Shown one piece after another: positions 12,130 through 58,055 of a stretch of 64,000 bases of DNA. Positions within the stretch are counted from its first letter, which is position 1, and every line of letters begins with the position of its first letter. Source of the stretch: Candidatus Harrisonbacteria bacterium RIFCSPLOWO2_01_FULL_44_18 (GTDB taxonomy: Bacteria; Patescibacteriota; Minisyncoccia; UBA6257; WO2-44-18); assembly GCA_001817915.1 (NCBI GenBank), contig MHJJ01000014.1, positions 3,695-67,694 on the forward strand. The letters are read 5' to 3'. The translations under genes were made by a program, and so were the position numbers. The notes beneath the pieces are model-generated. The model was not told the origin of the DNA. It made no database searches and saw only the letters and a program-made list of their open reading frames with translations.

Positions 12130-13155
12130 ATGATACTTATTGATTCTCATACCCATATCCAATTTCCGGTTTATGATAATGATCGGGAGGCGGTTATTGA
12201 ACGCGCGAGAAACGCGGGGGTTTACCCCCACACCAAACGAGCATTGGCGTTAGAAGAAAATGATGCTCGTTATGGTGTGGGGGTAAAAATGATTTGCGTC
12301 GGCACTCAAGCATCAACTTCTGAATCGGCAATTAAGCTCGCGGAAAAATATCCAGAGGATGTTTGGGCGACAATCGGCTACCATCCCAATCATGTTGTGC
12401 CAGCGCAACATGCGCAGACTTTGCGGACTGGACGCAGACTTGCGCAGACAAATTGGTATCATGATCAGAAGGAGCAGAAATCGGCAAATCCGCCGCGATT
12501 TAATATTGAAGAACTGCGCAGGCTTGCTCAGCATCCGAAAGTCGTGGCGATCGGGGAGTGCGGTTTGGATTACTACCGACTAGCCGCTAGCGATTTGCCA
12601 CTAGCCACTAGGGTTAAAGAAAAACAGAAAGAAATTTTTTTGCAGCAAGTCGAACTTGCGCAGGAATTAAATAAAGCATTGATGATCCATTGCCGGCCAT
12701 CCAAAGGCACCAACGACGCCTACGAAGATTTGCTGAAGATTTTACAGGAGATTAAATTTTCTCAGAATGTAATTATTCATTTTTATGTTGGTTCTGTTGA
12801 AATGGCACGAAAATTTTTAGATGCCGGATTTTACCCCCACACCAAACGAGCATTATCGGGGGGCGTCAATGGCGCGAATGCTCGTTATGGTGCGGGGGTT
12901 TATTTTACCTTCGGTGGCGTGATTACATTTTCACGCGACTATGACGAAATTATAAAATACATTCCTCTGGATCGAATTCTTCTGGAAACCGACGCGCCCT
13001 ATGTCGCGCCGGAACCGTATCGCGGCCGCCGCAACGAACCGGCATACATCGTGGAAACCGCTAAAAAACTAGCGGAAGTTAAAAATGTAAGCTTTGAAAA
13101 AGTGGCTGAAATAACTACCAAAACTGCTGGACAGATTTTTAAGTTGCCATTATAA
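12130..13155 (+). CDS. tatD: TatD-family metal-dependent DNase with in-frame repeat insertions
   Basis: Begins LIDSHTHI and carries the GECGLDYY and ETDAPY motifs. It is about 80 aa longer than typical TatD because of three in-frame repeat insertions. Confidence 0.8.
   Translation: MILIDSHTHIQFPVYDNDREAVIERARNAGVYPHTKRALALEENDARYGVGVKMICVGTQASTSESAIKLAEKYPEDVWATIGYHPNHVVPAQHAQTLRTGRRLAQTNWYHDQKEQKSANPPRFNIEELRRLAQHPKVVAIGECGLDYYRLAASDLPLATRVKEKQKEIFLQQVELAQELNKALMIHCRPSKGTNDAYEDLLKILQEIKFSQNVIIHFYVGSVEMARKFLDAGFYPHTKRALSGGVNGANARYGAGVYFTFGGVITFSRDYDEIIKYIPLDRILLETDAPYVAPEPYRGRRNEPAYIVETAKKLAEVKNVSFEKVAEITTKTAGQIFKLPL
12221..12287. mobile_element. palindromic miniature element (CCCCACACCAAACGAG family), copy 1, inside tatD in-frame
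   Basis: TIRs tttacccccacaccaaacgagcat / atgctcgttatggtgtgggggtaaa. No stop codon; translated as VYPHTKRALALEENDARYGVGVK. Confidence 0.7.
12829..12906. mobile_element. palindromic miniature element, copy 2, inside tatD in-frame
   Basis: ttttacccccacaccaaacgagcat...atgctcgttatggtgcgggggtttatttt; translated as FYPHTKRALSGGVNGANARYGAGVYF. Confidence 0.7.
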
Positions 13156-21424: not shown

Positions 21425-21667
21425 TGGACCTAGCCAGAATCCCCTGCCTGCCGGCAGGCAGGGAACTGGCGTTTCCTCATTGTCCCGACAGCAAAGGTGG
21501 ACCCAAGGAGATTCGAACTCCTGACCTCCACATTGCAAATGTGGCGCTCTAGCCAACTGAGCTATGGGCCCACCTTTACTGTCGTGGATCCTCGACTTCA
21601 TTTTATTATATTTTTTAAAAAAGTGCGTCGGGACAAATGAGGTGTTCTGCCACTGAACTATAGGCCC
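21425..21667 (-). tRNA. interrupted tRNA-Ala(UGC)-like gene with 151-nt insert that contains the intact tRNA-Ala
   Basis: 5' exon 21634-21667: GGGCCTA TA GTTC AGTGGCA GAAC A CCTCA TTTG. 3' exon 21425-21482: CAA TGAGG AAAC GCCAG TTC[22-nt palindrome]GATT CTGGC TAGGTCC A. The acceptor stem pairs with G3:U70. The anticodon loop reads TTTGCAA once the insert is removed. The insert is bounded by 7-bp inverted repeats TCCCGAC/GTCGGGA. Confidence 0.45.
21498..21571 (-). tRNA. tRNA-Ala (anticodon UGC)
   Basis: GGGCCCATAGCTCAGTTGGCTAGAGCGCCACATTTGCAATGTGGAGGTCAGGAGTTCGAATCTCCTTGGGTCCA. G3:U70 Ala identity pair, anticodon loop TTTGCAA. No encoded CCA. Confidence 0.85.
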
Positions 21668-21890
21668 GCCCACTTGATTTATATTATTCGATTGTTTGGA
21701 TTTTCGCCAGACTTTGTTTGCCAATAAAATCTAACGGTTCAACGCGTTGAACCATTAGAGTTTTTTGATTCCTCAACATAATATTTATATTTCTAAACTA
21801 GTTATGCGCGGCATAAAGGAACCGGCGTCAAATACTTCGGGCTTCGGCGAGGCGAAGCTTGCTTACGCTAAAGCTTTGACGAAGCGAATG

Positions 21891-21979: not shown

Positions 21980-22159
21980 TGCCCTCGGGAAGAATCGAAC
22001 CTCCATCCGCGCGTTAGGAGTGCGCTGTTCCCCGCCTGCCATCGCTTGTGCCCCCAGAAAGAATCGAACTCTCATCTTTCCCTTAGGACGGGATTGCTCG
22101 GTCCATTGAGCTATGGGGGCTCAGGCCATGGCGGGCAGTATCCATTGAACTACGAGGGC
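21980..22159 (-). tRNA. interrupted tRNA-Arg(CCU)-like gene with 108-nt insert in the D-loop containing the intact tRNA-Arg
   Basis: 5' exon 22139-22159: GCCCTCG TA GTTC AATGGATA. 3' exon 21980-22030: GAAC A GCGCA CTCCTAA CGCGC GGAT GGAGG TTCGATT CTTCC CGAGGGC A. Acceptor and D stems are perfectly complementary across the insert. The insert is flanked by CCCGCC/GGCGGG. Confidence 0.45.
22049..22120 (-). tRNA. tRNA-Arg (anticodon CCU)
   Basis: GCCCCCA TA GCTC AATGGACC GAGC A ATCCC GTCCTAA GGGAA AGAT GAGAG TTCGATT CTTTC TGGGGGC A. Confidence 0.75.
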
Positions 22160-23402: not shown

Positions 23403-23405
23403 GAG

Positions 23406-23630
23406 CCACCTCCTTTCATATAAATCTCTGTCTGACTTCCGATGTCCCCAATATTGATAATTTTCCGAAGGGCAATCGGCTGGAAGCCGATCGGACATCG
23501 GAAGTCTCAATATTAGGACATCCGATATCCGTCCCGATGTTCATCGGGATCGCCTGCGGCGAGAATATAATATTTGGGATATCGGATGTCTGCCAGCAGC
23601 GCGACCGAGAGCTTATATGAAAGGAGGTGG
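23406..23630. mobile_element. MITE-like element with 17-18-bp TIRs (CCACCTCCTTTCATATAA)
   Basis: ccacctcctttcatataa...ttatatgaaaggaggtgg, with internal inverted repeats gacttccgatgtcc/ggacatcggaagtc. Confidence 0.55.
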
Positions 23631-23761
23631 CCGCGCCTCCTCAATTTTCAATGAACCGCAATGTAAGTTAAATTATTGTATAGAATGGTTTCGATGTCAA
23701 AATCAGATAGGTTGTCGCGATTATTGCATATCAGACTTGGATTTATTAAATTATATATTAC

Positions 23762-23835
23762 GGGCCTATAGTGAAGCGGTATCACGGATCCATGGCATGG
23801 ATCAAGTCGGGGTTCGACTCCCCGTAGGTCCACCA
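23762..23835 (+). tRNA. tRNA-Ala (anticodon GGC) with encoded CCA
   Basis: GGGCCTA TA GTGA AGCGGTA TCAC G GATCC ATGGCAT GGATC AAGT CGGGG TTCGACT CCCCG TAGGTCC A CCA. G3:U70 present. Confidence 0.8.
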
Positions 23836-23919
23836 GACAGGAAATTGCAAGCGAGGCGACTGCCCCTGTTTTAGGCAGGCACATTTGGCGGGTTTTTATA
23901 TACTAGAGAAACGGGCGCG

Positions 23920-23948
23920 TTGACTACGCGTCACGGCTTCATATATTA
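23920..23948 (+). promoter_or_regulatory. sigma70-like promoter (TTGACT-17-TATATT) for the GNAT gene
   Basis: TTGACTacgcgtcacggcttcatATATATTAT, with a GGGGGT SD before the ATG at 23982. Confidence 0.45.
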
Positions 23949-23981
23949 TATTTCTGTACGTTGAAAGGGGGTAAGCCGGCT

Positions 23982-24464
23982 ATGATCAAAGTCGCGCTTT
24001 TTAATGAAATTTCCCATGAATTAGGCAATACTCTTCTTGTGGATGTCACAAGCAGGATCGTTGAAAGGATTAATAATCTTTTGAGGCAGTTGTCAGTCAA
24101 CGCTCCATATTGGACTATCGGATGTTTCGCGGAGTTTTTGCGGCAGTCCAATAATCATTTAGTTGTTGCTATTGATGGCAAAATTATTGCTGGTATGGGA
24201 ACGGTTATTTTGAGCTATTCTTTAATGGGCCGTCACGCGAGGATCGAGGATGTGATTGTAGATAAACCATATCTCGGTAAGGGTTTGGGTCGAAAAATTG
24301 TCGAGGAATTAATCAGAATCGCCAACAAGGAAGGAGCAAGATGGATTGATTTAACCAGCAATTCTTCGCGAGTCGGGGCACTGAAGCTTTATAGAAGCTT
24401 GGGATTTAAGGATGTGGCGACAAATTGTTTGCGGCTGGCTTTGGGAGAGCAGGATTCGAGCTAG
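23982..24464 (+). CDS. GNAT-family N-acetyltransferase (C-terminus supplied by a MITE)
   Basis: Acetyl-CoA-binding motif KGLGRKIVEELIRIA. The last 7 codons and the stop codon lie inside the TIR of the 24444 element. Confidence 0.7.
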   Translation: MIKVALFNEISHELGNTLLVDVTSRIVERINNLLRQLSVNAPYWTIGCFAEFLRQSNNHLVVAIDGKIIAGMGTVILSYSLMGRHARIEDVIVDKPYLGKGLGRKIVEELIRIANKEGARWIDLTSNSSRVGALKLYRSLGFKDVATNCLRLALGEQDSS

Positions 24465-24713
24465 CATCAATTTAGTGAGCCAATTCCCGCCCATCTTCTT
24501 TGTTACTCGTCGCTTATGTGCCTATTGGCACACTACGCTCCTCGCGCCTTGAATCTGGACAGGAATTGGCTCACCCGAAGGGAAGAGAGAATTTGAGCCA
24601 AGTTCGAGGAACGACGAGGAGGTTGTGCTGGTAAGCACATCGACGAGGAGTGACAAAGAAATTGGCTCAAATTCTCTCTTCTAAATTTGACGCCAGTTCG
24701 AATCCTGCTCTCC
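24444..24713. mobile_element. MITE-like element with about 33-bp TIRs whose ends resemble a tRNA T-arm/acceptor (GTTCGAATCCTGCTCTCC)
   Basis: ggagagcaggattcgagctagcatcaatttag ... ctaaatttgacgccagttcgaatcctgctctcc. A short copy of about 70 bp lies at 48682-48752. Confidence 0.6.
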
Positions 24714-24759
24714 TAGAGAAATAACCGCGGTTTCAAAAAATTCCCTCGAATGAGGGAAT

Positions 24760-25464
24760 TTAAATTGGATTTTGAATAATGTCGGGGATCATTGATGGAA
24801 CCAGTCCCAAGCGGTTACGCGCGGAACGGGGATCGCAAAACATGATCATAATCTTGTTTGTTCTGAAATGAACGTATGCTTGATATTGAGATAGATCGCC
24901 GTCGCCATTATCGGCGCACCAAATCGCCTGTTCATTAAAAATAAGTTTTTTTCTAAGCAAGCGGCGGATCAGCCAAGTGTAGACGTAGACTACGGCCCTT
25001 TCCCGAATTTGCGTTTCTCCAGTGAAGCGTTCTTCTTGATCGAAAAAACTTTTCCGCAAACTGCCGCTTAGAATCGCCTTTCTTAGCAAATACCACTTGA
25101 GTTCGCAGGTCTCGCGCTTCACGAAATCCATTTTTGTAATATCTGCCGCCTCTTCGCTTAAAATCGAGTTTTTCGCCTGGACAAATTTTACCCCCGGAAT
25201 TTTACCGCATAGAAATATAATCCTATTTATTGTGAGCGGGCGATTGGCGCCGTCTTGAGTTAGGCCCGGGAAGAGCACATAGTCGTCTTTACATTCTATG
25301 AGTTTAGCCGGAGAAAAGGGGATGACATCCAGACGCGTTTTTTCTGGAATAGATAATTTTGTTTTCCAAATCTCGCAGACTTCCATATAATCCATAAAAT
25401 TGTTTCCCATTATTTTTCGAGCGCCCCAGCGGGAGGTTCCATCATCTGTCATTTCGCGCCTCAT
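24760..25464 (-). CDS. hypothetical protein (orphan, in tRNA/MITE hotspot)
   Basis: 234-aa ORF with no recognisable motif. AT-rich upstream region. Confidence 0.5.
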   Translation of the reverse strand: MRREMTDDGTSRWGARKIMGNNFMDYMEVCEIWKTKLSIPEKTRLDVIPFSPAKLIECKDDYVLFPGLTQDGANRPLTINRIIFLCGKIPGVKFVQAKNSILSEEAADITKMDFVKRETCELKWYLLRKAILSGSLRKSFFDQEERFTGETQIRERAVVYVYTWLIRRLLRKKLIFNEQAIWCADNGDGDLSQYQAYVHFRTNKIMIMFCDPRSARNRLGLVPSMIPDIIQNPI

Positions 25465-26440: not shown

Positions 26441-26706
26441 AGAACCCATCTCAATAATAATCCCCAAACGCGTTCTTGGCTAGGGCCTGTCTGAGTGCGA
26501 GGCTTTCCGACGCAGGCGTACCTGAAAGGTACGTCGAGGAGGAATAACGAAGCAATCGGACAGGATAGCCAGAACCCGAAGGGATATGGCTCTTTTTGTC
26601 CATCGCGGCGTTGTCTCCTTTTCATCGTATTCTTTGAGTACGACTTCGTCGTCGCGCCTTGCGCTGAATGAAAAGAGTTCACATCGCGTTAGGAATTATT
26701 ATTGAG
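26441..26706. mobile_element. MITE-like element with 21-bp TIRs (AGAACCCATCTCAATAATAAT)
   Basis: agaacccatctcaataataat...attattattgagatgggttct. The interior is rich in hairpins (gcgtacctgaaaggtacgtc). Confidence 0.55.
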
Positions 26707-26754
26707 ATGGGTTCTCGTATATAATAAAGGTAAAATAATACGCAATTTTAATAA

Positions 26755-30167: not shown

Positions 30168-30390
30168 AAGACCTCTTGCTTAATAATTTTTCGTTACGAA
30201 ATGGATAAATTTGAGGCGAAACAAAGCGAAAATTTCGAGGCATATACAAGAGTATCTGTCGAGAAATTTTCGCAAAGTTGTAGCCCAAATTTATACATTG
30301 CAGTAGAAAAGGTTATTACGCAAGAGGTCTATATTCTGGTATACTAAAGCTAGATTGTCGTTAAGGCAAATTCACTGAACTAAGAACTAA

Positions 30391-31470
30391 ATGGCTTTCG
30401 ATTTTTTTAAATCTTTACTCGGCGCCCAAAATTATTTGGCGGTTGATATCGGCACTACTTCGATAAAGGTTTTAGAATTTTCAAAAAAATCCAACGGCCG
30501 GCCGGCTCTTCGCAATTACGGATTTTTGGAAACCTACGGCTATCTGGAAAGATTTAATGAAGCCCTTCAAACCAGTAGTTTGAAAATGCTTGATGTGGAG
30601 GCGGCGAAGTATTTAAAAATAGTTTTGGATCGCGCCGGAATCAAGTCGCGGTCGGCGGTCGCGTCCATACCCGCCTTTATGGCCTTTACCACTTTAATCG
30701 AACTGCCAATGATGAGCGAAGCTGAAACTTCGCAGACAATGGATTTTCAGGCAAAACAGTATATTCCCATCCCGGTAAAAGCGGCCGCGATTGATTGGAT
30801 AAAGATAGGCGAACGCGAGGACGAAGAGGGGCGAAAGAGACAGCAAGTTTTTTTGATTTCCGTTCCAAAGGAACAAATTGAAAAATATCAAAAGATTTTC
30901 CGGCTAGCCGGTTTGAAATTAGCCGCTTTGGAAATCGAGGGTTTGAGTCTTGCTCGAGCGCTTAGCCGAGGCATTAAAGAGCCGGTTTTGATTGTTGATA
31001 TCGGCGCTCGTTCAACCAGCCTGACCGTCGGAGTAGACGGGCTTTTGAGATTCGCCGGTCAAACCGATTTTGCCGGCGGCTCCTTGACTCAAGCAGTGGC
31101 TTCGGGTTTGGGCATCGCCGCCCGACGAGCTGAAGAATTGAAGTGGCGGAAGGGCTTAATCGCCACCGGCGGCGAGCAAGAGTTATCCACACTGATGCTA
31201 CCGTTTTTAGATGTTATAATTAATGAGGCGAAAAGAGTCAAGCAGAATTACGAAACCAGTTATCAGAATAAGATAGCCGCGGTTATTTTGGCGGGAGGCG
31301 GGGCAAATTTGTTGGGTATAGAGAAATATTTTGGTCAACAGATAGAACTGCCGGCATCTTTAGCCGCTCCCTTCAAAGAGATTGACTATCCGCCGGAGAT
31401 TGCCTCGTTAATCAAAGATTTGGGACCGGCATTTTCAGCCGCGATAGGACTAGGGATGAAAGGGCTATAA
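30391..31470 (+). CDS. pilM: type IV pilus assembly ATPase-like protein PilM
   Basis: Actin-like fold signature LAVDIGTTSIKVLEF. Position at the head of the pilus operon. Confidence 0.85.
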   Translation: MAFDFFKSLLGAQNYLAVDIGTTSIKVLEFSKKSNGRPALRNYGFLETYGYLERFNEALQTSSLKMLDVEAAKYLKIVLDRAGIKSRSAVASIPAFMAFTTLIELPMMSEAETSQTMDFQAKQYIPIPVKAAAIDWIKIGEREDEEGRKRQQVFLISVPKEQIEKYQKIFRLAGLKLAALEIEGLSLARALSRGIKEPVLIVDIGARSTSLTVGVDGLLRFAGQTDFAGGSLTQAVASGLGIAARRAEELKWRKGLIATGGEQELSTLMLPFLDVIINEAKRVKQNYETSYQNKIAAVILAGGGANLLGIEKYFGQQIELPASLAAPFKEIDYPPEIASLIKDLGPAFSAAIGLGMKGL

Positions 31471-31612
31471 CGAAGTAATCGCGAACAACGCGAATCTATG
31501 CAAAATAATGCTAATAATTTATTCGCGTTATTTCGAATCAGATTAGCATTATTCGCGATTACTCCGATTCGTGTTATTTTGAAACAAATTAGCATTATTC
31601 GCGATTACTCCG
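31471..31612 (+). repeat. 145-bp structured intercistronic element, copy 1 (pilM stop to pilN start)
   Basis: cgaagtaatcgcgaacaacgcgaa...aatgctaataatttattcgcgttatttcgaatcagattagcattattcgcgattactccgATG, with several internal inverted repeats. Near-identical copies lie at 34958-35108 and 36183-36331. Confidence 0.85.
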
Positions 31613-32146
31613 ATGAATCAAAATCTTGTTGATAAATTTGAAACGGAAAGATTGCCGACCGGGTGGCCATGGCGGTTATTTTTGTTCAGTTTTTTGCTTT
31701 TCGCGGCGACGGTCGTCAGTTATTTTGGTTTGTCATTGGGCTATAAGCCGTTTTTAAACAGGCAAATTGCCGGAAAGGAAGCGGAAGTTAATCAATTGGC
31801 GGCGGCCGTTCCCGAAGCCGAGCAGGAAAATTTTATTAGATTTTATTCTCAATTGGCGAATTTGGAGAAAGTCTTAAACAACCATGTTGTTTCTTCCGCC
31901 CTCTTTCCATTTTTAGAAAGAAATACCAACGTCCAGATATATTACAATATCTTGGATTTCAGCGCTTCGGAGAAGAGATTGACTTTGGATGGCGTTGCTC
32001 AAAACTACGATATTTTAGCGCAGCAGCTCGAGGCTTTCACTCAAGCTAAAGAGGTTGAGCGGTTTTTAATCAATGAATCGCAATTAAGCGAAGGAAAAAT
32101 AAGATTTCGGGTATCGCTATTTTTAGCGCCGCAAGTATTGAGATAA
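31613..32146 (+). CDS. pilN: type IV pilus assembly protein PilN-like
   Basis: Single N-terminal TM, then a coiled-coil periplasmic domain. Position after pilM. Confidence 0.6.
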   Translation: MNQNLVDKFETERLPTGWPWRLFLFSFLLFAATVVSYFGLSLGYKPFLNRQIAGKEAEVNQLAAAVPEAEQENFIRFYSQLANLEKVLNNHVVSSALFPFLERNTNVQIYYNILDFSASEKRLTLDGVAQNYDILAQQLEAFTQAKEVERFLINESQLSEGKIRFRVSLFLAPQVLR

Positions 32147-34957: not shown

Positions 34958-35108
34958 TATAATTAACGAAGTAATCGCGAACAACGCGAACCTATGCAAA
35001 ATAATGCTAATAATTTATTCGCGTTATTTCGAATCAAATTAGCATTATTCACGATTACTCCGATTCGTGTTATTTTGAAACAAATTAGCATTATTCGCGA
35101 TTACTCCG
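34958..35108 (+). repeat. 145-bp structured intercistronic element, copy 2 (pilB stop to pilT start)
   Basis: About 95 % identical to copy 1. Confidence 0.85.
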
Positions 35109-36182
35109 ATGGACGATTACAAACAAAAACTAGATGAATTACTGTTGACTACGGCGAAACAGAACGCTTCGGATCTTCATTTGGCCGTCGGTCGCCGTCC
35201 GACTTTAAGGATTGACGGCGCTTTAGTGCCTTTGCAAAAAGAGACGATATTAACTCCCGAGTCAGCCGAGGGTTTGATCAGCGCCTTTTTAACGCCGGAG
35301 CAAAAGGAAGAATTTCTAAAAAATAAGGAGCACGATCTTTCCTATTCTTTTGAAGACAAAGCCCGGTTTCGCGTCAATGTTTTTTATCAGCGGGGATTTA
35401 TGGCCGCCGCTTTGCGCTTGATACCGGCTCAAATAAGGACAGTCGAAGAACTTAATTTGCCGCCAGTCTTGCACGATTTTACCCGTCTTTCTCAAGGTTT
35501 TGTTTTACTTGTCGGTCCGGCCGGCCACGGCAAATCTACAACGATGGCCGCGCTGGCGGATGAAATCAATCATCAGCGCACCGCTCATATCATTAGCATT
35601 GAAGATCCCATTGAGTATTTATTTTCTCAAGATCGGAGCATTATTTCTCAAAGAGAGGTGAGAAATGATACGCCGGATTTTCACAAAGCGCTCCGTTCTG
35701 TTTTAAGACAAGACCCGGATGTGGTGATAATCGGCGAAATGCGCGACCCGGAGTCAATCTCAACGGCGCTGACGGCCGCCGAAACCGGCCACTTGGTTTT
35801 TTCAACGCTTCATACCAATTCCGCCTCCCAAACGATAGATAGAATTATTGATAGTTTTCCGCCCGCCCAACAGAGCCAGATTACATCTCAATTATCCGCC
35901 ACATTAGTCGGCATTGTTTCTCAACGTTTAATTCCGCGGGTTGACGGCGGCCGTATGCCGGCTTGCGAAGTAATGCTCGTTAATTCGGCGATCAGAAATT
36001 TGATCCGCGAGAGAAAGGCGTATCAAATTGATTTGGTGATTGAAACCAGCATGCAGGAAGGAATGTTAACTCTTAACCGTTCTTTAATCGGTTTGGTGAA
36101 AAAGAGGCAGATTTCAATTGAAAACGCGGAGCTTTATTCATTGAACCCGAGCGAGTTGAGGATATTATTGGAGAGAACATAA
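35109..36182 (+). CDS. pilT: twitching motility ATPase PilT
   Basis: Walker A GPAGHGKSTTMAA; PilT-type retraction ATPase blocks. Confidence 0.9.
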   Translation: MDDYKQKLDELLLTTAKQNASDLHLAVGRRPTLRIDGALVPLQKETILTPESAEGLISAFLTPEQKEEFLKNKEHDLSYSFEDKARFRVNVFYQRGFMAAALRLIPAQIRTVEELNLPPVLHDFTRLSQGFVLLVGPAGHGKSTTMAALADEINHQRTAHIISIEDPIEYLFSQDRSIISQREVRNDTPDFHKALRSVLRQDPDVVIIGEMRDPESISTALTAAETGHLVFSTLHTNSASQTIDRIIDSFPPAQQSQITSQLSATLVGIVSQRLIPRVDGGRMPACEVMLVNSAIRNLIRERKAYQIDLVIETSMQEGMLTLNRSLIGLVKKRQISIENAELYSLNPSELRILLERT

Positions 36183-36331
36183 CGAAGTAATCGCGAACAA
36201 CGCGAACCTATGCAAAATAATGCGAATACTGTTAACGGAGCAATCGCTAATAATGCGAATTTTGGCAAAATAATGCTAATAATTTATTCGCGTTATTTTG
36301 AATCAGATTAGCATTATTAGCGATTACTTCG
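36183..36331 (+). repeat. structured intercistronic element, copy 3 (variant; pilT stop to pilC start)
   Basis: Same 5' block taacgaagtaatcgcgaacaacgcgaacctatgcaaaataatgc and same 3' block aatgctaataatttattcgcgttattttgaatcagattagcattatt. The central segment is diverged. Confidence 0.8.
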
Positions 36332-37540
36332 ATGAAATATAGATACAGCGCCAGAACTAAAGTTGGGGATTTGCAGGTGGGATTTGTCGAGGCCGTTAAT
36401 CGCGACGCCGCGGCCAATATTTTAATTAGCCACGATCTTTTTGTTTTGAGTTTGGAATCGGCGGAGGCGTCAAGGTGGTTTGGCTGGATTTTGGGTTTTT
36501 TCCGACGAGTAAAAAAGATTGACCTGATGATTTTTACCCGCCAATTCGCCACCATGCTTGAAGCAAAAATTCCCTTAGGCGATTCCCTGAAAAGTCTTTA
36601 CGCTCAAACTAAGAATGTCGCTTTGAAAGAAACAATTTTTGAAATTTCTTCGGATATTGACGCCGGCCTTTCGCTTTCTCAATCTTTAAGCCGCCACGCC
36701 AATATCTTTTCGGAATTTTACATTAATTTGGTGCAGGCTTCGGAAGTGACCGGCCGCATTGAAGAGGCGGTTGGTTTTTTGGCAGACTATCTAGACAAGG
36801 AAATCTCTTTATTGGGACGCGTCCGCAGCGCCCTTATCTATCCGGTTTTTGTTATCGGCTTATTCATAGTCGTGGTTGGCGTTATGGTCGGCACGGTCTT
36901 CCCTCAGCTTTTGCCGATTTTTGAGGAGTCGGCGGCGGAGCTGCCTTTAATCACCAGCCTGCTTTTAAATTCCGGAAATTTCATCGCTGATTGGTGGTTG
37001 GCGATTCTGGTTATTCTGGCAATTCTTATCACTGTTTTGGTTGATTATTTCCGCACCGAAGAGGGCAGAATTATTCAGGATCAGTTGCTTATTAACACAC
37101 CGGTTGTGGGAGGCTTATTTAGAAAAATGTATGTCGCGAGATTCGCGGAGGCGGTCAGCGTTTTAATAAAAGGAGGAATTCCGATTGCTCAAGCAATGGA
37201 AATAAGCAGTCATACTGTTGGAAGTTTTGTTTATCGCGAGGCATTGCATGAGGTGGCGGAAGCTATCCGCGGGGGCGAGTTGCTGTCGCAAGCCTTGTCG
37301 CGCGACACGAATTATTTTCCGCCGATCGTCAGCCAAATGGTGGCGGTAGGCGAACGCACCGGCAAGCTGGACGAGATGTTTGGACGCGTAGCCAAATTTT
37401 ATACGCGCGAGGTTGATGCCACAGTGGGTAATTTAGTAGAATTAGTTCAGCCGACTCTTATGGTGGTTATCGGCTTAGGAGTGGGATTGCTTTTTGCGGC
37501 TGTATTGTTACCGATTTACAATTTGGCAGCAACATTTTAG
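36332..37540 (+). CDS. pilC: type IV pilus platform protein PilC (GspF family)
   Basis: Two GspF repeats and 3 TM segments; C-terminal end LLPIYNLAATF. Confidence 0.9.
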   Translation: MKYRYSARTKVGDLQVGFVEAVNRDAAANILISHDLFVLSLESAEASRWFGWILGFFRRVKKIDLMIFTRQFATMLEAKIPLGDSLKSLYAQTKNVALKETIFEISSDIDAGLSLSQSLSRHANIFSEFYINLVQASEVTGRIEEAVGFLADYLDKEISLLGRVRSALIYPVFVIGLFIVVVGVMVGTVFPQLLPIFEESAAELPLITSLLLNSGNFIADWWLAILVILAILITVLVDYFRTEEGRIIQDQLLINTPVVGGLFRKMYVARFAEAVSVLIKGGIPIAQAMEISSHTVGSFVYREALHEVAEAIRGGELLSQALSRDTNYFPPIVSQMVAVGERTGKLDEMFGRVAKFYTREVDATVGNLVELVQPTLMVVIGLGVGLLFAAVLLPIYNLAATF

Positions 37541-47386: not shown

Positions 47387-47447
47387 AAACCCCCACACCA
47401 AATGAGTTTCAAGATTCTATAAAAACTCGTTATGGTGTGGGGGTAAA
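47387..47447. mobile_element. palindromic miniature element (CCCCACACCAAA family), copy 3, intergenic
   Basis: aaacccccacaccaaatgag...ctcgttatggtgtgggggtaaa, followed by a terminator-like hairpin cccgccttcgagcggg. Confidence 0.7.
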
Positions 47448-47509: not shown

Positions 47510-48664
47510 ATGTTTATCACTTCGGAATCAGTTACCGAAGGCCATCCCGACAAGATGGCCGATCAGATTTCCGATGCCATTTTAGACGAAGTTTTAAGGC
47601 GCGACCCTTATGGCCGCGTGGCTGTTGAAACTCTTCTTACTAAAAATTTAGCGGTTATTGCCGGCGAGGTGACCACGCGCCATCGTTTTGACGCTGAAAA
47701 AATCGCGCGCAAAGTTATCAAAGAAATTGGCTATATCGATTCTGCCTATGGTTTTGATTCCAAGACTTCAAAAGTCCAAGTATTTTTAAATCAGCAATCG
47801 CCGGATATTGCTCAAGGAGTAAGTCAATATCGCGAGGAAAAACCGGAAAGCGTGGGCGCCGGCGATCAGGGCATTATGTATGGCTATGCCACGAATGAGA
47901 CGCCGGCTCTAATGCCGCTGCCGATTTTTTTAGCCCATAATTTAACTCGCCGTTTAGCCGAGGTTAGAAAAAAGGGAATTTTGAAATATTTAAGGCCAGA
48001 TGGTAAGGCGCAGGTAACAATTGAATATCAAAACGGCCGGCCCCGGCGAGCGCATACGATCTTGATCTCAACTCAGCACGCGCCGGAAGTGAAGCACGAG
48101 CAGATTAAAAAAGATGTTATCAATAAAGTAGTGGGCGCGGTTTTGTCAAAGAAATTAGTTGATAAAAATACGCGATTTTTGGTTAATCCGACCGGCCGTT
48201 TCGTAATCGGCGGGCCGGAAGGGGACACCGGTCTTACGGGGCGAAAAATAATCGTTGATACTTATGGTGGAGTTGCTTCTCATGGCGGCGGCGCTTTTTC
48301 CGGCAAGGATCCGACAAAAGTTGATCGCTCCGCCGCTTACGCCGCGCGATGGGTGGCTAAAAATATCATTGCCGCCGGTTTAGCCGATAAAGTCCAAACG
48401 CAAGTGGCTTATGCCATTGGCATTCCAGAGCCGTTGGCGGTGAATATTGATACTTTTGGCACGGGTAAAATACCAGACGAGAAATTGTCCGGAGTTGTCG
48501 CCGAAGTTTTTGATTTGCGCCCCGGAATGATTATTAAAAACCTGCGGCTCCGCCGGCCAATTTATCGCCAAGTGGCCGCTTATGGACATTTTGGAAGAAT
48601 TGATCTTGATTTACCCTGGGAAAAAACCGATAAAGTAGGGGAGCTGAAAAGACGGTTAAAGTAG
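47510..48664 (+). CDS. metK: S-adenosylmethionine synthetase
   Basis: [20 protein letters not shown] and [22 protein letters not shown] motifs. Confidence 0.9.
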
Positions 48665-48681
48665 CGTCAATCCCGCGCCTA

Positions 48682-48752
48682 GGAGAGCAGGATTCGAACT
48701 AGCGTCAAATTTAGAAGAGAGAATTTGAGCCAAGTTCGAATCCTGCTCTCCT
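48682..48752. mobile_element. short copy of the tRNA-end-like MITE (GGAGAGCAGGATTCGAAC TIRs)
   Basis: ggagagcaggattcgaactagcgtcaaatttagaagagagaatttgagccaagttcgaatcctgctctcc. Confidence 0.6.
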
Positions 48753-48756
48753 ATTA

Positions 48757-48786
48757 TCCGCCTAAATGGCGGATTTTTGTTTTTGA
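48757..48786 (+). terminator. rho-independent terminator after metK
   Basis: ccgcctaaatggcgg hairpin followed by ATTTTTGTTTTT. Confidence 0.55.
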
Positions 48787-56084: not shown

Positions 56085-58055
56085 ATGAAATTTTCCTACA
56101 CATTATTAAAAAAACTGGCGCCCGTTATAAAAAGCTCCGAGCAACTGATGGAAGCCTTAGCTTTTCATGCTTTTGAAGTTGAAAAAGTTGATGGCGATGT
56201 TATAGACATCGTCATTCCTGCTAATCGTTATTCTGATGCCGCCTCGCATTATGGGATGGCCGTGGTAGTGTCGGCAATTTTAGGCAAAAAAACGCCAGAA
56301 TTAAAACTGCCGGCGCTAAAGTCTAAAGCGCAAAGTTTAAACTTCAAAGTTGGCATTGATTCCAAAAAGCTTTGTCCGCGTTACAGCGGACTTTATGCCG
56401 AGATTAACAAGATTGGTAAATCTCCCGAGTGGATGCAAAAAATTTTAATTTCCTGCGGTTTGCGTCCAATTAACAACATCGTTGACGTGATGAATTATGT
56501 GATGCTGGAAATAGGACAACCATTACACGCTTTCGATTTTGACGAAATAGAAAGCGTGAAATCCAAAATCCAAAATCCAAAATCCAAAAATATTGTCGTT
56601 AGATTAGCAAAAGAAGGCGAAAAAATTGAAACAATTGATGGTGGCAAATATGACCTCGATGTAAATGATTTAGTAATAGCGGATGAAAAAGGGGCATTAG
56701 CGATTGCCGGGGTAAAAGGCGGAAAGCGCGCCGAGGTTTCTTTAAAAACTAAACGTATTATTGTTGAGGCGGCGAATTTCGATTCGGTTAGCGTTTACAA
56801 AACTTCTCGGCGGCTCAATTTATTCACTGATGCTTCGGCGCGCTTTTCTCATGGACTAGCACCCGTGTTAGTTGAAAAGGGGATTAAGAGAGCGGCTCAG
56901 CTTTTGAAAGAAGTTTGCGGCGCCAGATTGGGCGATTGGCTCGATGTGAACTATGTGAAGCCGAGTAAAACGATTATCAAGTTTGACGTGGAAAGATTTA
57001 ATAAGTTGACCGGACTTAGTTTAAGCGAAAAAGCGTGTTTGGAATATCTTAAAAAATTAGGATTTCAAGCAAGGGGCAAATTTATTGAGCCGCCGGCTGA
57101 ACGGACCGACATTTTGATTTTCGAGGATTTAGCCGAGGAAATTGTTAATCTTTATGGGTATGACCGGTTGCTTTCGGTTGTCCCGCGCGCGCTCTTGAGC
57201 CCTTCTGGAGCGGAAGATCAAATAGTTCTTAAAGATAAAATCAGAAGCATTCTAACCGGCTTTGGCTTGAGTGAAGTTTATAATTATTCTTTCATCGGAG
57301 AGCCTGATCCGAATCTACAAAATAAATTTTCATTGGTGGAGCTGGTAAATCCAATTGCCGATGATAAGAAATACCTGCGGCCCAGTTTATTTCCTCACTT
57401 GACTAGAAATATCGAAGAGAATTTTCGGTTTTACGATGAAGTAAGGATTTTTGAAATCGGTCGCGTTTTTGCGAAGGCAAGCGGCAAGAACGGTATAGCA
57501 AGCGGCATTAATGAGCAATTGAGTTTGGGGATCGCATTGGGGCTTAAAAAAGGCGCGCCATTTTTGGAGTTGAAAGGAATTGTTGAACAAATGCTCGGAC
57601 AAGCGGGCTTAGTTGATTATTTTACAAAAGAAGACGGCGAAGGTCGTTTACGGCTTGAATCCGATCATCGCACGCTCGGGTATTTAATTGCCAAAGACAA
57701 TAAAGCCCTTGCGGAAATTAATCTTGATGAATTGCTTCAATTGGTGGTCGGCGAAAAAGAATATAGGCCATTGCCGAAATATCCATCGGCGACGCGCGAT
57801 CTTTCATTTATGGTTGACGCTGAAGCGAGAGTAGCCGCGATTCAAAATATTATTGAAAATACCAGCCATTTACTCGATGACGCCGACTTATTGGATTGGT
57901 ACGAAGACCCGAAACTTGGCCCGAATAGAAAAAGTCTTACTTTTCGATTAGTTTTCCAAGCCGAAGATCGAACTTTAACCGATGAGGAAGTCGATCAAGA
58001 GTTAGGCAAAATTGTAGCCAGTTTGAAGGAGAAGTTTGATGTAGAATTAAGATAA
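56085..58055 (+). CDS. pheT: phenylalanine--tRNA ligase beta subunit (short form)
   Basis: B3/4 and B5 domain blocks and a C-terminal FDSA-like domain. Follows pheS. In-frame AAATCCA repeat at 56559-56590. Confidence 0.85.
   Translation: MKFSYTLLKKLAPVIKSSEQLMEALAFHAFEVEKVDGDVIDIVIPANRYSDAASHYGMAVVVSAILGKKTPELKLPALKSKAQSLNFKVGIDSKKLCPRYSGLYAEINKIGKSPEWMQKILISCGLRPINNIVDVMNYVMLEIGQPLHAFDFDEIESVKSKIQNPKSKNIVVRLAKEGEKIETIDGGKYDLDVNDLVIADEKGALAIAGVKGGKRAEVSLKTKRIIVEAANFDSVSVYKTSRRLNLFTDASARFSHGLAPVLVEKGIKRAAQLLKEVCGARLGDWLDVNYVKPSKTIIKFDVERFNKLTGLSLSEKACLEYLKKLGFQARGKFIEPPAERTDILIFEDLAEEIVNLYGYDRLLSVVPRALLSPSGAEDQIVLKDKIRSILTGFGLSEVYNYSFIGEPDPNLQNKFSLVELVNPIADDKKYLRPSLFPHLTRNIEENFRFYDEVRIFEIGRVFAKASGKNGIASGINEQLSLGIALGLKKGAPFLELKGIVEQMLGQAGLVDYFTKEDGEGRLRLESDHRTLGYLIAKDNKALAEINLDELLQLVVGEKEYRPLPKYPSATRDLSFMVDAEARVAAIQNIIENTSHLLDDADLLDWYEDPKLGPNRKSLTFRLVFQAEDRTLTDEEVDQELGKIVASLKEKFDVELR

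What the first reader, a model, noticed from the sequence alone, without database searches (positions are those of the whole stretch)
24444..24713. MITE family whose terminal repeats mimic a tRNA T-arm plus acceptor end
The TIRs GGAGAGCAGGATTCGA(G/A)CT…/…AGTTCGAATCCTGCTCTCC read like GTTCGAATCC (T-loop) followed by an acceptor strand. This suggests a tRNA-derived SINE-like element. That is notable in a window where tRNA genes themselves are rearranged.

The 270-bp copy supplies the last 7 codons and the stop of the GNAT gene. A 70-bp solo copy at 48682-48752 sits between metK and its terminator.
Basis: seen in the sequence. Interest (0 to 1): 0.55.

Follow-up and report, generated by a model that had tools for sequence, protein, structure and literature searches.

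The report
Hairpin mobile element with tRNA-like ends
This is a real family of small, non-coding, hairpin-forming mobile DNA elements in tiny groundwater bacteria; their 18-base ends are identical to the end of a tyrosine-tRNA gene of other phyla, but nothing else about them is tRNA-like or SINE-like.

Summary
Window 24444-24713 (270 bp) and 48682-48751 (70 bp) share the 18-nt inverted end GGAGAGCAGGATTCGAAC (4 hits against 0.03 expected).

The window comes from a Candidatus Harrisonbacteria genome (CPR/Parcubacteria). Related copies of 55, 70 and about 270 bp lie at 17 or more distinct sites in Harrisonbacteria, Yanofskybacteria and other groundwater contigs. Relatives have the orthologous GNAT and metK-gatC sites without the element.

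Full copies fold as a three-way junction: an invariant closing stem and two roughly 100-nt hairpins. The hairpin stems covary (39 of 102 pairs compensated) around conserved purine-rich loops.

TA flanks 21 of 28 ends, but both sides of only 4 of 10 complete copies. No transposase partner was found.

The 18-mer equals positions 53-70 of the tRNA-Tyr gene typical of Bacteroidota. However, the tRNA model finds nothing on the element. The one carrier genome with a visible tRNA-Tyr differs at 5 of 18 positions. A sister element at 26441-26715 shares the core but has unrelated ends.

Verdict: a new MITE-type family. The tRNA likeness is real in sequence, but the "tRNA-derived SINE" reading is not supported.

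The parts
24444..24713 (.). Full-length (270 bp) family-1 element
   Evidence: The ends pair over about 32 bp. RNA fold gives -144.7 and -146.3 kcal/mol on the two strands, z = -12 and -13.5. The family HMM matches full length.
24444..24461 (+). Left terminal inverted repeat GGAGAGCAGGATTCGAGC (1 mismatch). In GNAT frame it reads GEQDSS, with TAG at 24462-24464.
24475..24574 (+). Hairpin module M2 (pyrimidine-rich internal loops on the + strand)
   Evidence: nhmmer HMM positions 139-238; CM R1 60.5 bits on the - strand
24575..24581 (.). Central junction CCGAAGG between the two modules
24582..24681 (+). Hairpin module M1 (purine-rich internal loops CGACGAGGAG ... CGACGAGGAGTGACAAAGAA)
   Evidence: nhmmer 75.6 bits; CM R1 103 bits; 81% identical to L141 1605-1703
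24696..24713 (-). Right terminal inverted repeat GTTCGAATCCTGCTCTCC (exact), followed by TA at 24714-24715
23982..24464 (+). GNAT acetyltransferase gene; its last 6 codons and stop lie in the element
   Evidence: Pfam PF00583 E = 3.5e-15. The exact 160-aa product is on 24 contigs. Homologues end at ...RLAL* and ...RLELS*.
24737..24760 (.). Hairpin AAATTCCCTC-GAAT-GAGGGAATTT shared with relatives. It directly follows the GNAT stop where the element is absent.
   Evidence: alignment with L148 and L149
48682..48751 (.). Short (70 bp) family-1 copy: end + linker + 5' arm of the M1 stem + end. TA on both sides (48680-48681 and 48752-48753).
   Evidence: (I2, I6); DNA fold -29 kcal/mol, z = -11.4
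47510..48664 (+). metK; the short copy lies in its 3' untranslated region
   Evidence: ORF with the GHPDK motif; a source names the identical protein methionine adenosyltransferase
48756..48784 (+). Terminator-like hairpin plus T run downstream of the short copy
26441..26715 (.). Sister element (family 2, 275 bp). Unrelated 27-bp inverted ends AGAACCCATCTCAATAATAATCCCCAA, with an interior homologous to the family-1 modules.
   Evidence: I10; nhmmer E = 6e-5 and 4.5e-16; CM 68 and 33 bits; alignment A4; fold z = -10

Best explanation
The feature is a non-autonomous, non-coding palindromic mobile element (MITE type) of CPR/Parcubacteria.

Anatomy. The full unit is about 270 bp. It has an 18-bp terminal inverted repeat and a roughly 14-bp linker, which together form a closing stem of about 32 bp. 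Inside are two hairpin modules of about 100 nt, each roughly the reverse complement of the other, joined by a short CC..GG junction. The 70-bp and 55-bp forms are internal-deletion derivatives. The 70-bp junction lies at an AGTTCGA microhomology.

How it most likely moves (inferred). A transposase supplied in trans recognises the invariant 18-bp ends and inserts preferentially at TA. A TA duplication of the IS630/Tc1-mariner kind is the simplest reading. Later deletions next to the element would have erased one flank in many copies.

The interior. The hairpins are kept as structure, since their stems covary, around conserved purine-rich loops. These loops are most likely subterminal protein-binding or single-strand folding determinants inherited from the ends of the parent element (inferred).

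Effects on the host (shown). The end read in frame 1 gives GEQDS(N/S) followed by TAG. Insertions at gene 3' ends therefore swap in a 6-residue tail; this is seen in GNAT here, a flavoprotein and a 316-aa protein elsewhere. Intergenic copies add a very stable hairpin to a 3' UTR (metK) or lie just upstream of a start codon (pth).

The tRNA likeness. The identity of the 18-mer to tRNA-Tyr positions 53-70 is too exact to be random. It most likely marks an old capture of a tRNA-gene 3' segment as a transposon end. It gives the element no tRNA-like fold.
For: Repeat and dispersal:
- 4 ends in the window against 0.03 expected.
- A metagenome scan with the end plus 3 nt gave 21 contigs, 17 of them with recognisable family sequence at different flanks.
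- One sample (Ga0213870) has 2 and 3 contigs with identical element halves and different flanks, each ending inside the element.
- The window's species has at least 6 sites: two in the window, L131 x2, L134/L156 and L146.

Hosts: Harrisonbacteria and Yanofskybacteria, from names the sources give for the neighbouring proteins.

Empty sites:
- Syntenic relatives L148 and L149 (GNAT 68% identical; convergent neighbour 70% identical) go from the GNAT stop straight to the shared hairpin.
- L151 goes from the metK stop straight to a terminator, and L150 has a different spacer.

No coding or known RNA: nothing in Rfam and no tRNA call.

Structure: 90.6% of cells are paired, against 32-42% when partners are slid. 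39 of 102 pairs have compensatory changes, against 3-13 when slid, and 0 of 500 shuffles reach this.

The ends are the most conserved part. The end not fixed by the search is 92% identical, against 44-70% for the interior.

TA lies at 21 of 28 ends.

The non-TA side of the L134 copy is a deletion junction. The element abuts codon 84 of an IS200-like Y1 transposase gene whose remainder is missing.

C-terminal tails.
Against: - No autonomous element with these ends was found in any fetched locus, in viral contigs, or in phage or plasmid collections. The transposase class is therefore inferred from TA alone.
- Only 4 of 10 complete copies have TA on both sides.
- Removing 24444-24713 with no duplication restores GCT TTG TAG = ...RLAL*, exactly the C-terminus of homologue P0003. 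This fits insertion without duplication at least as well as TA duplication followed by decay.
- Strong covariation with conserved unpaired loops is more typical of elements recognised as folded single strands, or of functional RNAs, than of DDE-type MITEs.
- A sister family keeps the interior but not the ends. That is odd if the ends are the only recognition site.
Confidence: 0.7

Rival explanations
1. A single-strand, structure-recognised element. It would be moved by an HUH/Y1 (IS200/IS605- or RAYT-like) enzyme, or by a recombinase acting on folded DNA as at integron attC sites. It would insert next to a TA without duplicating it.
For: - Stems covary while loops and a bulge are conserved.
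- Every complete copy has TA on at least one side, but only 4 of 10 have it on both.
- The GNAT empty-site comparison fits zero duplication.
- A sister family keeps the hairpin core with different ends.
- Y1 (PF01797) transposase genes exist in these genomes.
Against: - The only adjacent Y1 gene is truncated by the element rather than flanked by it.
- Y1 genes of this clade carry their own unrelated 22-nt palindromes.
- IS200/IS605 and REP elements lack long perfect terminal inverted repeats.
- TA on both sides in 4 of 10 copies is more than the roughly 10% expected by chance.
- G-U and A-C mismatch counts are similar (about 21 against 16), so there is no strand bias.
Confidence: 0.15
2. A structured non-coding RNA or cis-regulatory RNA family. 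The function would lie in the transcript, for example processing or stability control or a protein sponge, and dispersal would be secondary.
For: - Very strong covariation and conserved loops.
- Copies lie in transcribed positions: the metK 3' UTR, gene 3' ends, and 18 nt upstream of pth.
- Correia elements show that MITE hairpins can be RNase III targets (PMC2229807).
Against: - Both strands fold equally well.
- There is no consistent orientation or position relative to genes.
- Deletion forms of 55-70 bp that lack the conserved loops are the commonest copies in the window's species.
- No promoter-like site in or next to the copies.
- Arms of a palindrome can co-evolve by template switching without any selection on RNA.
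Confidence: 0.1
3. A tRNA-derived SINE-like retroelement, or a functional tRNA mimic.
For: 18/18 identity of the end to tRNA-Tyr positions 53-70. The window's own tRNA-Ser(TGA) shares 12 nt, GTTCGAATCCTG.
Against: - No tRNA call by ARAGORN.
- No RF00005 match even at E<=10.
- Position 52 is A in the copies read, and the similarity stops at position 53.
- The T-loop bases are fully paired in the terminal duplex.
- Terminal inverted repeats are present and there is no tail.
- The tRNA-Tyr of a carrier genome differs at 5 of 18 positions.
- The sister family lacks the motif.
Confidence: 0.03

Closest known systems
Correia / NEMIS elements of Neisseria
   Same: Short non-coding elements with terminal inverted repeats. 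They have TA at the ends, long and short deletion forms, very stable hairpins when transcribed, and fusion to the ends of open reading frames (review PMC2229807).
   Different: Correia elements are 100-155 bp simple hairpins. Here the full unit is about 270 bp with a three-way junction, covarying stems around conserved loops, and ends that copy a tRNA 3' segment. No IHF site or RNase III processing has been shown here.
RUP of Streptococcus pneumoniae (mobilised by IS630-Spn1)
   Same: TA target, inverted ends, and insertion into genes of other mobile elements (PMC2229807). The L134 copy truncates an IS200-like gene.
   Different: RUP has an identified partner IS with matching ends. None was found here.
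Rickettsia palindromic elements (RPE)
   Same: Palindromic repeats in a reduced genome that become part of coding sequences (PMC2229807).
   Different: RPEs insert in frame inside genes. Here the end brings its own stop codon and replaces only the C-terminal tail.
REP/BIME elements with RAYT (Y1) transposases
   Same: Structure-conserving palindromes. Y1 genes occur in the same genomes.
   Different: REPs are 20-40 nt and cluster around their RAYT gene. The Y1 genes seen here have their own distinct 22-nt palindromes, and one is broken by the family-1 element.
tRNA-gene attachment sites of integrative elements
   Same: The 18-mer starts at tRNA position 53. Four Flavobacterium loci hold tRNA-Tyr 3' fragments that diverge exactly there, as att-site duplicates would.
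   Different: Att repeats are direct, run to the tRNA 3' end, and flank an integrase-bearing island. Here the copies are inverted, stop at position 70, and flank 20-230 bp of non-coding hairpin.

Membership tests
MITE (miniature inverted-repeat transposable element) | Short (under about 500 bp) with terminal inverted repeats | tested here: met
   55-279 bp. The 18-bp ends are exact or carry 1-2 mismatches.
MITE (miniature inverted-repeat transposable element) | No coding capacity of its own | tested here: met
   The substitution pattern is pairwise-compensatory, not codon-like. Only chance ORFs under 50 aa overlap it.
MITE (miniature inverted-repeat transposable element) | Many copies at unrelated sites, with presence/absence differences between relatives | tested here: met
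   At least 17 distinct flanks; at least 6 sites in one species; empty GNAT and metK-gatC sites in relatives.
MITE (miniature inverted-repeat transposable element) | Target-site duplication | tested here: inconclusive
   TA at 21 of 28 ends, on both sides in 4 of 10 complete copies. No empty site from a close enough strain was available to see the duplication directly.
MITE (miniature inverted-repeat transposable element) | A cognate autonomous IS with the same ends | tested here: not met
   No pair of ends more than 300 bp apart around a transposase in any fetched locus. 0 hits in viral contigs and none in phages or plasmids. The genome-wide search was swamped by tRNA-Tyr genes, so absence is not shown.
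IS630/Tc1-mariner-derived MITE | TA duplicated at insertion; ends matching an IS630-family member | tested here: inconclusive
   TA enrichment is present, but duplication is unproven and no matching IS630 member is known to me or was found.
SINE / tRNA-derived retroposon | tRNA-related 5' head with A and B boxes, a 3' tail, and no terminal inverted repeats | tested here: not met
   Only an 18-nt 3'-end segment is tRNA-like, and it is present in inverted form at both ends. There is no tRNA CM hit at E<=10 and no tail.
tRNA gene or tRNA-like RNA (Rfam RF00005 and other families) | Cloverleaf, or at least an acceptor/T-arm fold, detectable by covariance model | tested here: not met
   ARAGORN tRNAs in the window, none in the element. 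cmscan finds nothing but weak miRNA-hairpin noise.
REP/RAYT (REPtron) | 20-40-nt palindromes associated with, and flanking, a Y1 transposase gene | tested here: not met
   The element is 55-279 bp. The one adjacent Y1 gene is truncated by it, and Y1 genes of this clade carry different palindromes.

The most novel reading that the evidence does not exclude
The about 270-bp unit could be a new class of structure-defined mobile element of CPR bacteria. On this reading a conserved two-hairpin core is the part that matters, recognised as folded single-stranded DNA or RNA. The core is shared by families with unrelated ends. Family 1 would have acquired its ends from the tRNA-Tyr attachment site (positions 53-70) of an integrative element. 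It would then be handled by a tRNA-site-specific recombinase, or would betray exchange with bacteria carrying that tRNA-Tyr, such as Bacteroidota.
Probability: 0.1. Interest if true: 0.75.

Novelty: new member of a known kind. Interest (0 to 1): 0.42.

Why it matters
CPR genomes are small, and I found no paper in the searchable library describing MITEs in them.

This family, and several other palindromic repeats in the same window, show that these genomes carry active small mobile DNA. The element rewrites protein C-termini, adds hairpins to untranslated regions, breaks other transposase genes, brackets a restriction-modification cassette and fragments assemblies.

The exact tRNA-Tyr 18-mer at the ends gives a concrete, testable lead on how a transposon end can originate from a tRNA gene segment.

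The strongly covarying core with conserved loops is a well-defined object for asking whether such elements are recognised as sequence or as structure.

Tried and rejected
- Genome-wide scan with the bare 18-mer.
- Viral contigs, phage records and plasmid records: no match.
- Rfam at permissive thresholds: only miRNA-precursor noise, as any long hairpin gives.
- I first read the 100% identity between the window's 70-bp copy and L134 as transfer between distant genomes. This was rejected: L131 and L134 belong to a strain about 99.8% identical to the window's species.
- I looked for a strain lacking the pth-upstream copy. The variant contig L156 carries it identically.
- P0176 seemed a possible allele without the GEQDSN tail. 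It is the same protein with a later start.
- The Y1 (IS200-like) fragment next to the L134 copy was tested as a possible mobilising enzyme. Homologues confirm PF01797, but their flanks carry unrelated 22-nt palindromes and no family-1 sequence.
- A 4-mismatch relative of the end at 57297 has no inverted partner in the window and appears to lie in coding sequence. I treated it as a chance match.
- The hairpin covariance model R1 found no further modules in the window, only generic hairpins of other repeat families.
- L124, L125, L126 and L138 are isolated 21-mer matches in unrelated GC-rich contigs without tRNAs. I treated them as chance or solo ends.

Full report
**1. The observation**

The sequence is as described. 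GGAGAGCAGGATTCGAAC occurs four times within 3 mismatches: 24444 (+, one mismatch), 24713 (-), 48682 (+) and 48751 (-). Shuffles give 0.03 on average. The repeat finder reports the same arms and shows that pairing runs about 30-35 nt in from each end (I5, I6).

The GNAT reading frame enters the element at 24444 and reads GGA GAG CAG GAT TCG AGC TAG. The product on record starts at 23982 and is a GNAT acetyltransferase by Pfam.

The short copy is 48682-48751. It has TA on both sides, lies 17 nt after the metK stop, and sits 4 nt before a terminator-like hairpin with a T run.

**2. Whose genome this is**

The GNAT and GatC proteins of the window are named by a source as Candidatus Harrisonbacteria bacterium RIFCSPHIGHO2_01_FULL..., locus tags A2745_. 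The exact GNAT protein lies on 24 contigs from Rifle aquifer samples. This is a CPR/Parcubacteria genome.

**3. It is a family**

The bare 18-mer scan of species genomes was swamped. 118 of 124 matches are tRNA-Tyr(GTA) genes, nearly all from Bacteroidota.

A metagenome scan with three more element-specific bases (GGAGAGCAGGATTCGARCTNG) gave 21 contigs. Seventeen carry recognisable family sequence:
- Full copies of 267-279 bp: L121, L133 (identical to L137), L140 and L141.
- Halves at contig ends: L122, L123, L128, L129, L139 and L130.
- 70-bp forms: L131 (two copies), L134 and L136.
- A 55-bp form: L127.
- Truncated ends: L132 and L135.

In one sample, two contigs share one identical half and three share the other, each with different flanks and each ending inside the element. 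This is what a multi-copy repeat does to an assembly.

Neighbouring proteins place L133/L137 and L121 in Candidatus Yanofskybacteria, and L131/L134 in a second Harrisonbacteria strain. That strain is 99.8% identical to the window's species over 6.3 kb.

In this one species the sites are:
- the GNAT 3' end;
- the metK 3' UTR;
- both sides of a restriction-modification cassette next to a flavoprotein gene;
- the region upstream of pth;
- a solo end at the 3' end of a 316-aa gene.

**4. It is inserted DNA**

Two relatives have the same gene order, with GNAT 68% identical and the convergent neighbour 70% identical. Both run from the GNAT stop straight into the shared hairpin AAATTCCCTC...GAGGGAATTT, with no element. 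Their proteins end ...RLAL* and ...RLELS*, where the window protein continues with GEQDSS.

Relatives found through GatC tell the same story. One runs from the metK stop directly into a terminator. The other has a 398-bp spacer filled with a different palindrome. Neither has the 70-bp copy.

**5. Anatomy**

Aligned full copies show this order: end (18 nt), linker (about 14 nt), hairpin module M1, a short CC...GG junction, hairpin module M2, linker, end.

Each module has a stem of about 23 bp with a conserved bulge, a large internal loop, and a 5-8-bp apical hairpin. In M1 both loop strands are purine-rich and conserved (CGACGACGAAG and GAGGAGGAGCAACGAAGAA). M2 is roughly the reverse complement of M1, so the whole unit is an old palindrome of a half of about 135 bp.

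On five sequences the predicted structure has 102 pairs:
- 90.6% of cells are paired, against 32-42% when the partners are slid by 1-3 columns.
- 39 pairs carry compensatory double changes, against 3-13 when slid.
- No shuffle of 500 reaches the observed values.

The first 19 pairs, which are the ends, never vary. The module stems hold 11 and 13 compensated pairs.

The end that the search pattern did not fix is 92% identical between lineages, while interior segments are 44-70% identical.

G-U and A-C mismatches are about equally frequent (my count), so no one strand is favoured. Both strands also fold equally well.

The 70-bp form is end + linker + 5' arm of the M1 stem + end. Its junction falls at an AGTTCGA sequence found both at the stem/loop border and in the end. 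The 55-bp form is ends plus linkers only.

**6. A sister family**

The family HMM and a covariance model of M1 also hit 26476-26685 in the window. This is the interior of a 275-bp palindrome at 26441-26715. Its 27-bp ends (AGAACCCATCTCAATAATAATCCCCAA) are unrelated to family 1 and are not flanked by TA.

The two-hairpin core is therefore shared by elements with different termini. The tRNA-like 18-mer is a property of one family, not of the core.

**7. The flanks**

TA lies next to 21 of 28 ends. Among ten complete copies, four have TA on both sides and six on one side only.

For two of the six (L131), the TA-less sides face a 3.5-kb restriction-modification cassette, while the outer sides are TA.

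For L134 the TA-less side is a deletion junction. The element abuts codon 84 of an IS200-like Y1 transposase gene, just before where homologues carry the HUH motif, and the rest of that gene is gone. Deletions next to the element can thus explain one-sided TA.

At the GNAT site the left flank is TG. Removing the element without any duplication gives GCT TTG TAG (...RLAL*), exactly like homologue P0003. A TA duplication followed by an A-to-G change would give ...RLALEK*. I cannot decide between these two.

**8. The tRNA likeness**

GTTCGAATCCTGCTCTCC equals G53 to C70 of tRNA-Tyr(GTA) as found across Bacteroidota, and in single Planctomycetota, Porticoccaceae, Bdellovibrionales and Blastocatellia genomes. 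An arbitrary 18-mer would not coincide with a phylum-wide conserved gene segment, so I take the likeness as real and not chance.

It goes no further, however:
- The base before the 18-mer is A in every copy, where a T stem needs G. The three bases before that vary.
- In the folded element the T-loop bases are paired with the other end.
- ARAGORN and the Rfam tRNA model report nothing, even in a 361-nt search at E<=10.
- The one carrier genome whose tRNA-Tyr is visible (L139 319-405) has ...GGTTCGAGTCCTGCCGCACCCACCA, which is 5 differences in 18.
- No tRNA in the window or the CPR loci comes closer than 4 mismatches.

Four Flavobacterium loci hold tRNA-Tyr 3' fragments that diverge exactly at position 53. 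I take these to be attachment-site duplicates of integrated islands. That makes capture of such a segment as a transposon end conceivable, but it is only a lead.

**9. Mechanism**

Shown: the element is inserted, multi-copy, non-coding, structure-conserving DNA with invariant ends and a strong association with TA.

Inferred: transposition in trans by an enzyme that binds the 18-bp ends, most simply a DDE transposase with a TA target as for RUP with IS630-Spn1 (PMC2229807).

The main rival is an element recognised as a folded single strand and inserted next to TA without duplication. It is favoured by the covariation, the conserved loops, the shared core with different ends, and the GNAT empty site. 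It is disfavoured by the long perfect ends and by TA on both sides in 4 of 10 copies.

No partner gene was found.

**10. Effects on the host**

In frame 1 the end reads GEQDS(N/S) and then TAG from the linker. Three independent genes end this way: GNAT, a flavoprotein (REQDSN) and a 316-aa protein.

The metK copy adds a hairpin of about -29 kcal/mol (DNA parameters) between the stop and the terminator. By analogy with Correia elements this could affect mRNA stability or processing, which was not tested.

**11. Comparison and verdict**

The closest known things are bacterial MITEs: Correia/NEMIS, RUP and RPE. The element meets the MITE criteria of size, inverted ends, lack of coding, copy number and insertion polymorphism. 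Target duplication is inconclusive and the partner is missing. It fails every criterion of a SINE or a tRNA-like RNA.

I found no paper on MITEs in CPR bacteria or on tRNA-like MITE ends in bacteria in the searchable library.

I rate it a new member of a known kind. It has two unusual traits worth a follow-up: the tRNA-Tyr 18-mer ends, and the covarying two-hairpin core shared with a family that has different ends.

Noticed in passing
window 26441-26715: A 275-bp palindromic element between the thymidine kinase gene and the P-type ATPase gene. It has unrelated 27-bp inverted ends, no TA flanks, and an interior homologous to the family-1 hairpin modules.
   Followed up: partly
window 24475-24681 compared with L121, L133, L139, L140, L141 and window 26476-26685: The window's 270-bp copy has the two modules in the order M2-M1. 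Five other lineages and the sister family have M1-M2. This is equivalent to both module interiors being flipped within their stems. No mixed state was seen.
   Followed up: partly
L131 2138-5807 (same as L153 5322-8989): A restriction-modification cassette (N6/N4 methylase, a 453-aa protein with a weak NucS_C match, an Mrr_N protein) has 114-bp inverted ends of its own. It sits between two direct 70-bp copies whose outer flanks are TA. It looks like integration by recombination within a copy of the element.
   Followed up: partly
L134 2460-2711 (identical in L156): An N-terminal fragment (84 codons) of an IS200-like Y1 transposase (homologues carry PF01797). It is cut off by the 70-bp copy just before where homologues carry the HUH motif, and the rest of the gene is missing.
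   Followed up: yes
L157 2948-2970 and 3166-3190; L158 243-270 and 418-446; L159 279-325: Y1 transposase genes of this clade carry their own palindrome of about 22 nt (for example TATGGACTTGCGATGTCCATA) upstream of the gene. In L157 and L158, and in the L134 fragment, it is also found in frame inside the coding sequence between the N-terminal motif and the HUH motif. L159 has two upstream copies only.
   Followed up: no
window 12221-12287, 12831-12901, 47387-47446: Another palindromic repeat family with ends TTTACCCCCACACCAWAYGAG, at three sites. One of them lies just upstream of metK.
   Followed up: no
window 30169-30330: A palindrome of about 160 bp with ends AGACCTCTTGC...GCAAGAGGTCT, possibly a further small element.
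   Followed up: no
window 31467-31615, 34963-35111, 36179-36380: A 148-nt direct repeat family (98% and 72% identical copies) with internal inverted repeats.
   Followed up: no
window 21600-21670 (-) and 21980-22047 (-): tRNA gene fragments next to intact tRNA genes: a 5' fragment (GGGCCTATAGTTCAGTGGCAGAAC...), and a 3' part resembling the neighbouring tRNA-Arg (73% over 40 nt).
   Followed up: no
L139 249-318: A tRNA 3' fragment (GTAGGTCGCGAGTTCAAATCCCGCCCTCGGCT) lies about 25 nt from the end of the element and just before an intact tRNA-Tyr. In L122 a copy starts 2 nt after the discriminator base of tRNA-Thr.
   Followed up: no
L146 and L147 compared with window 23405-24581: A strain variant has different DNA upstream of window position 23405 and a gap plus about 100 extra bases before tRNA-Ala. 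Both contigs end at the centre of the 270-bp element (24577 and 24581).
   Followed up: no
L150 1603-2000: In a relative, the metK-gatC spacer is 398 bp and holds three copies of the palindrome ACTATCACGYGTGATAGTA.
   Followed up: no
L026, L050, L063, L070: These Flavobacterium loci hold tRNA-Tyr 3' fragments that keep positions 53 to the 3' end and diverge exactly at position 52/53, as attachment-site duplicates of integrated islands would.
   Followed up: no
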